Of a stretch of 54,192 nt of DNA, positions 30,565 through 33,500 are shown piece by piece (position 1 is the first letter of the stretch; every line of letters starts with the position of its first letter). Source of the stretch: Candidatus Aminicenantes bacterium. Lineage in GTDB: Bacteria; Acidobacteriota; Aminicenantia; UBA2199. The notes under the pieces were generated by a model. It was not told the DNA's origin, ran no database searches, and was given only the letters and a program-made list of their open reading frames with translations. A program made the translations under genes and the position numbers. The stretch spans positions 1 through 54,192 of the forward strand of contig JAHELQ010000001.1 of the NCBI GenBank assembly GCA_024644125.1, written 5' to 3'.

Positions 30565-33500
30565 TTACACGTATTCCTTTATAATTCCGGCTGTTTTTTT
30601 CACATGGGGCGGCTCCAGCATTGTCACATGATCTCCAGTAGTTTCGATCACATGGACTTTGCCGTAAGACATTTTCTTCACCGCCTGAGGTTCCACTCTA
30701 AATTTTGACCGGATGGCTTTAATATTCAATATGGGAGCATGAATGACTCCCGAGAACTTTCGTTGATGGGGAATTTTGGCAAAGGCCATGAACATGTCGT
30801 GCAACAATTCCGCAACCTCTTTCTTCGCAGCTTCCGCCTCGTCGGGCGACAACGCCGGTTGTCCGGCCCGTTCCCGATCCACTATTCGAGCTTCAGCGAC
30901 ATAGGCTTCGAATTCCTGCGACAATTCCTCGACGGACTTGCCGAAATAAGTCTGCTTTCTGGATTTGAATAATCCCCCCAACGTGCGGACCGAATCGGCG
31001 AATCGGTGCAGGAAGAAGTATTGCACAGGGATCATGACCGGTTCGTCAAGCATGATCGTATGCTCCACTTTCATTCCCATCGCCTCCATCTTTTTCACCA
31101 AATTGTAGGCAACAAAATCGCCGAAACAATAGCCGCCGATAATATAGGGACCCTCCGGTTGAACCTCTCTGATCTGGTAGAGATAATCGTCCACCATCTC
31201 AAACATCGAGGTGGGATACGGAGACCTACGGGAGACGCCCCTCGCCTGGACGCAATAGACGCTGAACTCCTTTTCCAACAATTTTCCTAAATCCCTGTAT
31301 TGATAAGCAAGCCCGTGAAGCGGGTGGATGAAGAAAATTTTCCTCTCCTGCTCGCATTTGTTGAGTTTTACGATGCACTCCGGTCCCGCTTCGGAGCGCT
31401 CTCCCCCGAGACTTGCGGCCAATTGTCGAATGGTGGGATAGAGTATGATGTCGCTGAGGTCTAATTGGCAACCCAACGCCTCTTTGATTTTCGGTACAAT
31501 GGTCAACGCCTTGAGTGAATCTCCGCCCAATTCGAAGAAATCATCGTCGATTCCCACCTTCTGTATTCCGAAGAATTCCTGCCAAATCCGGCACAACGCC
31601 ATTTCGGTATCTGTAGCGGGTGCCGCGAACACGCTTCCGAGCTCCGGCCGTTGATGCAAGCTTGCCGCCGGTTGGGCAGCGGAAGTTTGATTGAAGCCCT
31701 GGCTCATGGTGGCTTGCACTTTTTCATCCGCCTCTCGCAACACTCCGAAGAGATCTCGGGTGCAGATGATATTCAACGGTTTACCGTGCCCCACAGCTCT
31801 GCGGAACACCTCGACTCCTTCCCGGTTACTCAAACCACCGGGAATCATACCTTCATAATCGAGATTTTGGGCATCGGGAAAATCCATATCAATGGCGTTC
31901 CGGGTCATCCCGCCCTCGAGCCAATCATCCCATTCGATAGCGAGGCTGAAGATTCCGGACTTCACCGCTTTGTATCCGGCAAAGGCATCCATGAATTCAT
32001 TGGCGGCATTGTAGCTAACCTGTGCGAATTTCCGCTTGTACAATTGGTTACCCAGCGAGGAGAACAAAATCATAAAATCGAGAGGCTCCTCTCGGAGCAA
32101 CGACTCCAACACCAATGTGCCGCGAACTTTGCAATCCATATATTGTTCGGTGATCTTGCGCGTCCGTTTCTGGATCACCCCGCCGAAATCGATGACACCG
32201 GCGGCGTGAATCACGCCGTTAATGGGCCCGTAACTGGCTTTTGTGTGTTTAATGATCTCCTGCATCGCCTTTATATCCGAGATATCGGCGCTATAGACCG
32301 CGACCGAAGCTCCAGCCTGCTGGAACGCCTGCAACGAGAGGATCTTCTGTTTGATCTTCTCGGGTTCGTTTGGATCATCAAGTCGTTCACTCCATTCAAT
32401 TTCCGGGGGAAACGAACTGCGGCCGATCATTACCAATTTAGCCTTGTAGGCGGTAGCAAGGAATTCGGAGACGCTGAACCCCATACCCCCGAAGCCGCCA
32501 ATCACCAGATACACGCCGCCGGTTTTGAACGGAAGCTGCCGGTCCGGAACTTCTTCGAGATGCATGGGGATTTGCCGCTGCACAAACCGTTCTCCATATC
32601 TCCAGGCAACGAAGGGATCGCTCTCCCCTATCAAGATGTCGTCGAGCACTTTCCGTAGCAACAAATCTTTCCCGCTGCCGGAAAACTCCTGAGGCTGAAT
32701 ATCAATGCACCGGCAAGTGAGATGGGGATATTCCACCGGAATTATTTTCACCGCCCCCAGCATGGTTGTTTTTTCAGGGAGCGCGAACTCATCTTCGGCA
32801 ACGCGAAACATTTGATTGGCCAATACAACGATGGCGACATCCTGCTTGATCCTTTGTCGGCCAATGGCTTGCGCCATATTGAGCAAGCTGAAGAGTCCCA
32901 TATCCTGGTCTTCATCCAATTCTTCCAGGGAAACTGGCCTCTCTCGCTCGGCGGTGACATTCCAGCAATGAATAATTCGCGCCGGGATGGAGTTCTGCTG
33001 TTTCAATTCCGCGAATAAGCGGTCATAATCTTTCGGCGACGAGGGATCGACGAAGATGAGGTCCCCCTCTTGTCGATATGTTTTGCCGGGTAGTACCATG
33101 ATGAGCGGATGCCCTACCGAATCTTCCAGCCTCCGTTGAAGACTGCTCTCGAATTCCCCTTCGCGCAAAAACAAAAGCCATGGAGCGGTGTCTGCCGGAT
33201 CTGATTGTTTGGAGATGTGTTCTTTTAGCGATTTTGGCTTCCAGTCATATTGGTAAAACCAATCGCCGATATCCGAACGTTTGGGGAGTACCGGCCGCTT
33301 GTTCATATTTTTTCGTATGGCGGCGTAGGTTTGTTGGGAAAAAAGAAATGTCTGTCCGGCAAATGGGTAAACCGGAAGTGGAATGCGCTGGGGAGTGGAA
33401 TCTCCATGGAACGCTTTCCAATCGACAACCACGCCATTCATCCAGGCCTGTCCAATTTTTTCCAGGAAATAGCAAGCTGAGTCGGAGCTCTCTTGAGGAT

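What the first reader, a model, noticed from the sequence alone, without database searches (positions are those of the whole stretch)
30568..31390. Terminal thioesterase uses Cys (GYCFG) and sits directly after a KR that makes a beta-hydroxy thioester
Seen in sequence: the nucleophile elbow reads IIGGYCFGDF, with TGT at 31126-31128, instead of GxSxG. A candidate catalytic His lies in TTGDHVTML (30628-30630). The TE of the left-hand NRPS in the same window is a normal GGWSLGG. The upstream KR has an intact GGFGGMG and K/S/Y/N set.

Established knowledge: Cys-for-Ser TE domains are rare. In the studied cases they are linked to strained-ring release (ObiF beta-lactone, SulM beta-lactam).

Inference: release from a beta-hydroxyacyl (statine-like) thioester via a thioester acyl-enzyme could give a beta-lactone or another non-hydrolytic product. 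Such a reactive warhead would explain the need for a prodrug and export system.
Basis: partly seen in the sequence, partly recalled or inferred. Interest (0 to 1): 0.62.

Follow-up and report, generated by a model that had tools for sequence, protein, structure and literature searches.

The report
Cysteine thioesterase ending a peptide-polyketide line
The release domain of this peptide-polyketide assembly line really uses cysteine instead of serine, but this is the inherited norm of a large unstudied enzyme family, and nothing marks it as a maker of strained rings such as beta-lactones.

Summary
The 1810-aa KS-AT-KR-ACP-TE protein (30565-35997, minus strand) ends in a thioesterase (TE) whose nucleophile elbow reads GGYCFGD. 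The triad is Cys1624 (TGT 31126-31128), Asp1651 and His1790.

The Cys is not a sequencing error. Eight independent assemblies carry TGT or TGC at this codon. It is also the family norm: 111 of the 150 best 50%-identity representatives have Cys here, most of them after plain NRPS modules. In a tree, the window's TE falls in an all-Cys clade that mixes PKS- and NRPS-terminated proteins.

The nearest solved structure, by sequence and by fold, is the uncharacterised Cys-TE of AB3403 (4ZXH). As in AB3403, the Asp is at the canonical site after beta6. The beta-lactone and beta-lactam makers ObiF and SulM have moved their Asp, ObiF has Gly at the canonical site, and SulM has a Q-C-N elbow. None of these is present here.

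The beta-lactone reading therefore lacks its published hallmarks, but it is not excluded. The KR is intact, and the cassette KS-AT-KR-ACP-TE(Cys) plus a ClbP-like/ABC fusion recurs in four distinct relatives.

Best reading: an AB3403-like Cys-TE that forms a thioester acyl-enzyme. The releasing nucleophile is unresolved; I rank water first. This is a new member of a known kind, of moderate interest.

The parts
30568..31389 (-). Type I thioesterase domain (residues 1537-1810 of the PKS) with a Cys1624/Asp1651/His1790 triad and a helical lid of about 100 residues
   Evidence: Pfam PF00975. AlphaFold2 pLDDT 91.7. Best Foldseek and phmmer hit in the PDB is 4ZXH AB3403.
31126..31128 (-). TGT codon of the nucleophile Cys1624 in the elbow GGYCFGD
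   Evidence: It aligns with the Ser of serine TEs and the Cys of AB3403. It is conserved as TGT/TGC in 8 assemblies.
31045..31047 (-). Asp1651 (IMLDEP), the triad acid at the canonical position after beta6, 27 residues after the Cys
   Evidence: At least 90% conserved in alignment A1. It aligns with the Asp of AB3403 and of 112 of 117 TE domains.
30628..30630 (-). His1790 (TTGDHVTML), the triad histidine
   Evidence: Invariant in alignment A1. It lies in the loop after the last core strand of the model.
31414..31596 (-). Acyl carrier protein domain; GGDSL carries the phosphopantetheine serine
   Evidence: Pfam PP-binding, residues 1468-1528; motif found.
31921..33132 (-). Ketoreductase (structural plus catalytic subdomains) with GGFGGMG and YNAAN. 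It is expected to leave a beta-hydroxyl on the last unit.
   Evidence: Pfam PF21394 and PF08659; motifs found. There is no Pfam hit for a DH or ER domain.
33439..34395 (-). Acyltransferase domain with GHSIGE and HAFH (malonyl-type motif)
   Evidence: Pfam PF00698; motifs found.
34849..35967 (-). Ketosynthase domain
   Evidence: Pfam PF00109 and PF02801.
35987..40978 (-). Upstream NRPS with the domain order A-T-C-A-T. Its last A domain (code DAFPLGM-TK, hydrophobic type) supplies the amino acid that the PKS extends.
   Evidence: Pfam; specificity codes.
27455..30538 (-). ClbP-like S12 peptidase fused to an ABC exporter, directly downstream of the TE
   Evidence: Best PDB hits are full-length ClbP (7MDE, E 1e-44), followed by ABC exporters. 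The same gene follows the Cys-TE PKS in L001/L006, L002, L004 and L009.

Best explanation
This is a working type I thioesterase with the triad Cys1624, Asp1651 (canonical site after beta6) and His1790. It belongs to a large, biochemically unstudied family of cysteine thioesterases. The family is found mostly at the ends of NRPS modules in uncultured bacteria, here Aminicenantes-like. Its only solved member is the TE of AB3403 from Acinetobacter baumannii. The cysteine is inherited from that family. It is not an adaptation to the beta-hydroxy substrate.

Mechanism, with the basis for each step:
1. The last NRPS module loads a hydrophobic amino acid, and the KS-AT-KR module adds malonate and reduces it. 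The ACP then carries a peptidyl 4-amino-3-hydroxyacyl (statine-type) thioester. This is inferred from the domains.
2. The chain moves to Cys1624 by transthioesterification, giving a thioester acyl-enzyme. This is inferred from the triad.
3. A nucleophile resolves the thioester. Which one cannot be read from the sequence. I rank water first (about 0.4), which would give a free C-terminal statine-type acid. The ClbP-like/ABC fusion would then export and trim it. Cyclising or transferring releases share the rest (see rivals).
For: Domain order and motifs.

Triad:
- It aligns with Ser/Asp/His of 90 serine TEs and with Cys/Asp of AB3403.
- The AlphaFold2 model has pLDDT 91.7, with the three residues in the classic strand-loop positions.

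Nearest solved relative:
- Best PDB match by sequence is 4ZXH AB3403 (E 9.5e-16), whose elbow GGWCFGG aligns on GGYCFGD and whose IDT Asp aligns on LDE.
- Best match by fold is also 4ZXH (E 6.9e-16). ObiF1 (6N8E) ranks only 44th.

Size and make-up of the family:
- 111 of the 150 best representatives have Cys; of the 70 rows I printed and inspected, nearly all also have the canonical Asp and the His.
- Most of them follow A or C domains, not AT-KR.
- The tree places the window in a 19-row all-Cys clade (SH-aLRT 89) that holds both PKS- and NRPS-terminated proteins.
- Final A-domain codes of the NRPS-terminated relatives are Pro-like, hydrophobic or unassigned. None clearly matches Thr, Ser or Dap as I recall those codes.

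The Cys codon is kept in 8 assemblies.

The ClbP-like/ABC gene sits next door, here and in relatives. The ClbP-type prodrug pathways I know of release linear products (my own knowledge).
Against: - All four biochemically characterised Cys-TEs are cyclases (ObiF, SulM, BulbE, polymyxin TE). Hydrolysis as the release step therefore has no direct precedent for a natural Cys-TE. The studied set is biased towards unusual products, however.
- The beta-hydroxyl is conserved in every PKS-type member of the clade (all are KS-AT-KR-ACP-TE). The cassette with the prodrug peptidase is conserved across otherwise different assembly lines. Both would fit a conserved reactive C-terminal warhead.
- No model coordinates were available, so triad distances were not measured.
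- The substrate itself is only inferred.
Confidence: 0.7

Rival explanations
1. The beta-hydroxyl left by the KR attacks the Cys1624 thioester (4-exo-trig). The chain is released as a beta-lactone, a reactive warhead that would justify the prodrug and export system.
For: - Cys nucleophile, as in ObiF, where C-to-S gives hydrolysis (PMC6668435).
- Intact KR with no DH directly before ACP-TE.
- Every PKS-type member of the clade keeps KS-AT-KR-ACP-TE.
- The ClbP-like/ABC fusion follows in four distinct relatives.
Against: - The published hallmarks are absent. ObiF and SulM have the Asp moved to the later strand, ObiF has Gly at the canonical site, and SulM has Q-C-N. Here the canonical Asp is present and conserved, and the elbow is Y-C-F. 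The window has Arg where relatives have Asp or Glu at the alternative site (sequences).
- There is no sequence hit to ObiF or SulM at E <= 1. ObiF ranks 44th by fold.
- The same all-Cys clade ends NRPS modules whose last residue shows no sign of a beta-hydroxyl.
- No duplicated target or resistance gene was seen in the cluster.
Confidence: 0.15
2. The amide nitrogen of the last amino acid attacks the thioester (5-exo). The chain is released as an N-acyl 4-hydroxypyrrolidin-2-one, which could dehydrate to an electrophilic pyrrolinone. The thioester acyl-enzyme would help this poor nucleophile.
For: - The NRPS-to-PKS-TE end architecture is the one for which the Dol15F TE is proposed to cyclise through a secondary amide nitrogen (PMC13643306).
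- In BulbE, Cys is needed for a weak nitrogen nucleophile (PMC11792885).
Against: - The Dol15F activity is a proposal. Its reconstitution failed, and that paper does not mention a Cys.
- Dol15F has no KR. With a KR the ring is not a tetramic acid, and I know of no precedent for that.
- The NRPS-terminated clade members cannot do this chemistry.
Confidence: 0.1
3. The TE macrocyclises: a side-chain or N-terminal nucleophile further up the peptide attacks the thioester, as in the polymyxin and BulbE Cys-TEs.
For: - All characterised Cys-TEs are cyclases.
- The full line has at least 8 units in the 77% relative (3967-aa upstream NRPS), which is long enough for a ring.
- The lid is large, about 100 residues.
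Against: - A ClbP-type peptidase is expected to remove an N-terminal leader from a linear precursor (my own knowledge of ClbP and ZmaM systems).
- The A-domain codes I could read are mostly hydrophobic or unassigned, with no clear Thr, Ser, Dab, Orn or Lys code.
Confidence: 0.15
4. The TE is an acyltransferase. It passes the chain from Cys1624 to an external nucleophile (an amine, alcohol, sugar or thiol) rather than to water.
For: - Thioester acyl-enzymes favour transfer.
- Earlier notes of this scan on other Cys-TE clades raised this idea for glycan loci (unchecked AI notes).
Against: There is no candidate acceptor-making gene in the cluster. The flanking genes here are housekeeping.
Confidence: 0.08
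5. The Cys is an assembly or sequencing error, or the domain is a decayed, inactive TE.
For: Read depth in the only public holder is about 2, and the codon is not covered.
Against: - TGT or TGC occurs at the same site in 8 independent assemblies.
- The Cys/Asp/His triad is kept in nearly all of the closest representative clusters inspected.
- The fold is predicted with high confidence.
Confidence: 0.02

Closest known systems
AB3403 termination-module thioesterase, Acinetobacter baumannii (PDB 4ZXH/4ZXI)
   Same: - Cys nucleophile in a G-x-C-F-G elbow.
- Asp at the canonical site after beta6, and a C-terminal His.
- Best PDB hit by sequence (E 9.5e-16) and by fold (E 6.9e-16).
- Its product and release chemistry are also unknown (PMC11298585).
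   Different: - AB3403 is a C-A-T-TE NRPS module, whereas this TE follows KS-AT-KR-ACP.
- Identity is only about 18% in the structural alignment; phmmer aligns only the N-terminal ~117 residues.
- The lid here is longer.
- AB3403 has no ClbP-like partner that I know of.
ObiF / ObiF1 thioesterase (obafluorin beta-lactone; PDB 6N8E)
   Same: Cys nucleophile. The substrate carries a beta-hydroxyl next to the thioester.
   Different: - ObiF has its Asp on the later strand (RifR-like) and Gly at the canonical site. Its substrate is an N-acyl beta-hydroxy-alpha-amino acid on a PCP (PMC6668435).
- Here the canonical Asp is kept.
- There is no sequence hit at E <= 1, and ObiF1 ranks 44th by fold.
SulM thioesterase (sulfazecin beta-lactam)
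   Same: Cys nucleophile.
   Different: SulM has a Q-C-N elbow, Asp at position II and an arginine-rich pocket for sulfamate (PMC11298585). Here the elbow is Y-C-F and the Asp is at position I. SulM did not appear among the sequence hits or the top 50 fold hits.
BulbE TE and polymyxin TE (macrocyclising Cys-TEs)
   Same: Natural Cys nucleophile. They show that the Cys serves weak or ordinary nucleophiles in ring closure, not only four-membered rings (PMC11792885).
   Different: Both end NRPS lines and make macrocycles. I had no sequences to compare, so the relationship to this clade was not tested.
Dol15F (dolastatin 15 terminal PKS-TE)
   Same: An NRPS-fed terminal PKS module with a TE. The TE is proposed to cyclise through the amide nitrogen of the last amino acid (PMC13643306).
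   Different: Dol15F is KS-AT-T-TE with no KR. Its nucleophile residue is not stated, and its activity was not reconstituted.
ZmaM / ClbP prodrug peptidase systems
   Same: The gene after the TE is a ClbP-like peptidase with its membrane helices, fused to an ABC exporter, as in ZmaM.
   Different: No Asn-type A-domain code and no C-starter were seen in the window or in the relative's upstream NRPS. The cleavage site is unknown.

Membership tests
Type I PKS/NRPS thioesterase (alpha/beta hydrolase, PF00975) | Profile match and a position directly after a carrier protein at the end of the last module | tested here: met
   PF00975 E 3e-19; PP-binding at residues 1468-1528 and TE at 1553 onward. 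The stop codon follows the TE.
Type I PKS/NRPS thioesterase (alpha/beta hydrolase, PF00975) | Nucleophile elbow between a core strand and a helix, an acid after the next strand, and His near the C-terminus | tested here: met
   AlphaFold2 secondary structure places C88, D115 and H254 correctly. The three columns align with S/D/H in 89 of 117 TE domains. Distances were not measured because no coordinates were available.
AB3403-like cysteine thioesterases | Cys nucleophile together with Asp at the canonical position I | tested here: met
   GGYCFGD aligns on GGWCFGG, and the Asp of IMLDEP aligns on the Asp of AB3403's VMIDTR. The literature states that AB3403 has Cys plus a position-I Asp (PMC11298585).
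AB3403-like cysteine thioesterases | AB3403 is the closest solved relative | tested here: met
   Top phmmer hit in the PDB and top Foldseek hit.
ObiF/SulM-type strained-ring Cys thioesterases | Cys nucleophile | tested here: met
ObiF/SulM-type strained-ring Cys thioesterases | Catalytic Asp relocated to position II (RifR-like); in ObiF, Gly at the canonical site | tested here: not met
   The canonical Asp1651 is present and at least 90% conserved. At the alternative site the window has Arg where relatives have Asp or Glu (sequences). The criteria come from PMC6668435 and PMC11298585.
ObiF/SulM-type strained-ring Cys thioesterases | SulM-type Gln-Cys-Asn elbow | tested here: not met
   The elbow is Tyr-Cys-Phe.
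ObiF/SulM-type strained-ring Cys thioesterases | A beta-heteroatom nucleophile on the thioester-bound unit | tested here: inconclusive
   A beta-hydroxyl is expected from the intact KR, but the substrate was not observed. NRPS-terminated clade members lack an evident beta-nucleophile.
ObiF/SulM-type strained-ring Cys thioesterases | Formation of a four-membered ring that depends on the Cys | not testable with these tools
   This needs enzyme assays with wild type and C1624S.
ClbP/ZmaM-type prodrug activation system (context) | Periplasmic S12 peptidase with C-terminal membrane helices, here fused to an ABC exporter | tested here: met
   Full-length ClbP (7MDE) is the best PDB hit, E 1e-44 over residues 38-480. 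ABC exporters match residues 533-1017.
ClbP/ZmaM-type prodrug activation system (context) | An N-acyl-D-Asn leader made by a starter C-A(Asn)-T-E module | tested here: inconclusive
   No Asn-like code was found among the 4 A domains in the window or the 3 readable ones of the relative's upstream NRPS. The first 641 residues of that NRPS were not read.

The most novel reading that the evidence does not exclude
The conserved cassette is a PKS module with KR, then an AB3403-like Cys-TE, then a ClbP-like/ABC fusion. It may make and handle a reactive C-terminal ring built from a statine-type unit: a gamma-acylamino beta-lactone or an N-acyl hydroxypyrrolidinone. That would be the first natural PKS-borne Cys-TE shown to do this. 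It would do so with the canonical Asp position, contrary to the current ObiF/SulM rule. It would also explain why these lineages couple the module to prodrug export.
Probability: 0.2. Interest if true: 0.7.

Novelty: new member of a known kind. Interest (0 to 1): 0.35.

Why it matters
Cysteine thioesterases are used as a genome-mining flag for beta-lactone and beta-lactam products. This case shows that the flag alone misleads. The Cys here is the norm of a large family in uncultured bacteria, spanning more than 100 clusters at 50% identity. That family has the canonical triad layout and serves many kinds of substrate.

The useful lead is narrower. The unit KS-AT-KR-ACP-TE(Cys) followed by a ClbP-like/ABC fusion recurs across otherwise different Aminicenantes-type assembly lines. 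It could be tested with one excised ACP-TE construct and a C-to-S swap. Any biochemical result would be the first functional assignment for the AB3403-like Cys-TE family.

Tried and rejected
- **Sequencing error.** I looked for reads. Only low-depth Logan contigs exist and they miss the codon. I rejected the error idea on conservation of the codon in 8 assemblies.
- **ObiF/SulM membership.** I tested the published criteria (Asp position, Gly at the canonical site, Q-C-N) and rejected membership.
- **Cys tied to beta-hydroxy substrates.** I rejected this because NRPS-terminated proteins sit inside the same all-Cys clade. Their last A-domain codes do not read as Thr, Ser or Dap.
- **Asn-type prodrug leader.** I looked for an Asn-type A domain in the window and in the relative's upstream NRPS. 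None was found.
- **Literature.** I searched for a natural Cys-TE on a PKS module and for Aminicenantes NRPS products, and found nothing relevant.
- **KR stereochemical type.** The LDD region reads HAAGVIDFGG, which I could not assign by motif.
- **Triad distances.** No model coordinates were available, so distances were not measured.
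Full report
**1. What is there**

The finding lies at the 3' end of a minus-strand ORF, 30565-35997, which encodes 1810 aa. Pfam gives KS, AT, KR (structural and catalytic parts), PP-binding and Thioesterase PF00975.

- KR: GGFGGMG and YNAAN.
- AT: GHSIGE and HAFH (malonyl type).
- ACP: GGDSL.
- TE elbow: IIGGYCFGDF, with TGT at 31126-31128.
- Catalytic His: TTGDHVTML, with the His codon at 30628-30630.

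The left-hand NRPS ends in a normal GGWSLGG thioesterase.

**2. Is the Cys the nucleophile, and is it real?**

I aligned 117 TE domains taken from the homologue search. Cys1624, Asp1651 (IMLDEP, 27 residues after the Cys) and His1790 fall in the columns that hold Ser, Asp and His in the serine TEs.

An AlphaFold2 model built on a 29-row alignment is confident (pLDDT 91.7, pTM 0.91):
- The Cys lies between a core strand (82-87) and a helix (89-103).
- The Asp lies just after the next strand (108-114).
- The His lies in the loop after the last core strand (245-250).
- A helical lid of about 100 residues lies between the Asp and the following core strand.

Public reads could not settle the codon. 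The one holder has contigs at depth about 2 that do not cover it. The same site is TGT or TGC in eight independent assemblies, at 30-85% TE identity. A sequencing error is therefore excluded for practical purposes.

**3. How unusual is the Cys?**

It is not unusual within its own family.
- An exhaustive phmmer search of 1.8 billion representatives found 2514 proteins at E <= 1e-10. Of the 150 best, 111 have Cys at the elbow; of the 70 rows I printed and inspected, nearly all also have the canonical Asp and the His.
- A crude motif scan shows that most of these end NRPS modules (C-A-T-TE). Only a minority follow AT-KR.
- In a quick maximum-likelihood tree, the window's TE sits in a 19-row all-Cys clade (SH-aLRT 89). 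This clade contains both KS-AT-KR-ACP-TE proteins and NRPS-terminated ones (P0007, P0014, P0016, P0018, P0019). The Cys label needs only about 4 changes on the whole tree.
- The last A-domain codes of those NRPS-terminated relatives are AGKANSLVDK, DPQSIAHVVK (Pro-like), DAFPIGSTVK, DIWSLTADDK and DAYVLGAVIK. None clearly matches Thr, Ser or Dap as I recall those codes.

The Cys is therefore an inherited trait of the clade. It is used with several kinds of acyl chain and is not tied to a beta-hydroxyl.

**4. Comparison with known Cys-TEs**

The best PDB match is AB3403 of A. baumannii (4ZXH), both by sequence (E 9.5e-16) and by fold (E 6.9e-16). Its elbow GGWCFGG aligns on GGYCFGD, and its Asp aligns on Asp1651.

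The literature says the following:
- AB3403 is the only other structurally known TE with a nucleophilic Cys and an Asp at the usual position I.
- ObiF (beta-lactone) and SulM (beta-lactam) have the Asp moved to a later strand. ObiF has Gly at the usual place, and SulM has a Q-C-N elbow. The authors argue that this relocation is what allows four-membered ring closure (PMC6668435 and PMC11298585).

The window's TE fails these criteria:
- It has the canonical Asp and a Y-C-F elbow.
- At the alternative acid site it has Arg, where its relatives have Asp or Glu (sequences).
- ObiF1 ranks only 44th by fold. Neither ObiF nor SulM appears by sequence at E <= 1.

Cys-TEs are also not confined to strained rings. 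BulbE closes a macrocycle through an indole nitrogen, and the polymyxin TE makes a macrolactam (PMC11792885).

**5. Context**

The gene after the TE (27455-30538) is a ClbP-like peptidase, including its membrane helices, fused to an ABC exporter. Its best PDB hit is full-length ClbP, 7MDE, E 1e-44. An earlier agent of this scan reached the same ZmaM-type reading.

The pairing KS-AT-KR-ACP-TE(Cys) followed within one to three genes by a ClbP-like/ABC fusion recurs in four distinct relatives:
- the 77% relative (L001/L006);
- a different NRPS-PKS line at 46% TE identity (L002);
- an Aminicenantes MAG at 36% (L004);
- L009, where a carboxyltransferase gene lies between them.

DUF5916 accompanies the pair in three of these. 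Two other contigs end too early to tell.

The window cuts the assembly line at its right end. In the 77% relative, a 3967-aa NRPS that starts with an A domain lies upstream, so the full line has at least eight units.

Specificity codes are unusual or hydrophobic. The A domain that feeds the PKS reads DAFPLGM-TK. No Asn-type code was found.

**6. Mechanism**

Shown by sequence and model:
- an intact Cys/Asp/His triad in the canonical layout;
- a TE that follows ACP and an intact KR.

Inferred:
- The ACP carries a peptidyl 4-amino-3-hydroxyacyl (statine-type) thioester.
- The chain moves to Cys1624 by transthioesterification.
- The thioester acyl-enzyme is then resolved by a nucleophile.

The nucleophile cannot be read from the sequence. 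My ranking is:

| Release route | Probability | Main reason |
|---|---|---|
| Water (free statine-type acid) | about 0.4 | ClbP-type pathways known to me release linear pro-forms; the family serves many substrates |
| Macrocyclisation | 0.15 | All characterised Cys-TEs are cyclases |
| Beta-lactone | 0.15 | Beta-hydroxyl present, but ObiF/SulM hallmarks absent |
| N-acyl gamma-lactam through the amide nitrogen | 0.1 | Proposed precedent in Dol15F (PMC13643306) |
| Transfer to an external acceptor | 0.08 | Thioesters favour transfer, but no acceptor gene is present |

The main argument against putting water first is that every characterised natural Cys-TE is a cyclase.

**7. Verdict**

The catalytic Cys, the His and the beta-hydroxy substrate logic hold. 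The link from Cys to a strained ring does not, because the published hallmarks were tested and are not met.
- The domain is a new member of the known but unstudied AB3403-like Cys-TE family, here on a PKS module.
- The conserved cassette with the prodrug peptidase/exporter is the part worth an experiment.
- Interest is moderate (0.35).

Noticed in passing
L002:10001-20953; L004:10001-21316; L009:8001-20432; window 27455-35997: The unit KS-AT-KR-ACP-TE(Cys), followed by a ClbP-like/ABC fusion and often DUF5916, is conserved at 36-46% TE identity. The upstream NRPS/PKS genes differ between these contigs. It looks like a portable end-and-export cassette.
   Followed up: partly
L007:1-9979 (77% relative of the window's cluster): A 3967-aa NRPS that starts with an A domain 68 nt from the contig start lies upstream of the PP-loop/B12-rSAM gene. 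The window is therefore cut inside the assembly line, which has at least 8 units. The readable codes are DAFNLGGTFK, DAFALGCTFK (Val/Ile-like) and DVFPFGIVWK. The last differs from the window's DPRSLALMVK.
   Followed up: partly
window 35987-53847 (minus strand): Three of the four A domains have a charged residue at code position 239 (DPRSLALMVK, DPESIGQIDK, DVRSLAILAK). I could not assign them to any substrate.
   Followed up: no
window 42345-50676 (minus strand): A radical SAM plus B12-binding pair sits inside the A domain of the 1875-aa NRPS. A separate 907-aa protein combines a PP-loop domain with B12-rSAM. Earlier agents of this scan have already reported on both.
   Followed up: no
window 31921-32500 (KR catalytic subdomain): The region that holds the LDD motif in B-type KRs reads HAAGVIDFGG. 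The configuration of the beta-hydroxyl cannot be called by the usual motif rule.
   Followed up: no
P0007 (2074 aa, NRPS-terminated Cys-TE relative): Its last A domain lacks the Asp235 that binds the alpha-amino group (code AGKANSLVDK). It may load a keto or hydroxy acid before the Cys-TE.
   Followed up: no
P0123, P0132, P0133, P0137, P0142, P0145 and others: Many of the closest Cys-TE representatives are only 225-300 aa long. They are either gene fragments from short contigs or free-standing Cys thioesterases. I did not resolve which.
   Followed up: no
window 19000-27454 versus 27455-53847: The housekeeping block downstream of the cluster has 40% G+C, against 50% for the cluster. The same housekeeping genes flank the cluster in the 77% relative.
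   Followed up: no
window 30568-31600 in run X1/X3: Only one sediment metagenome holds this stretch, at a contig depth of about 2. The metatranscriptome of the same sample shows nothing. There is therefore no evidence of expression.
   Followed up: partly
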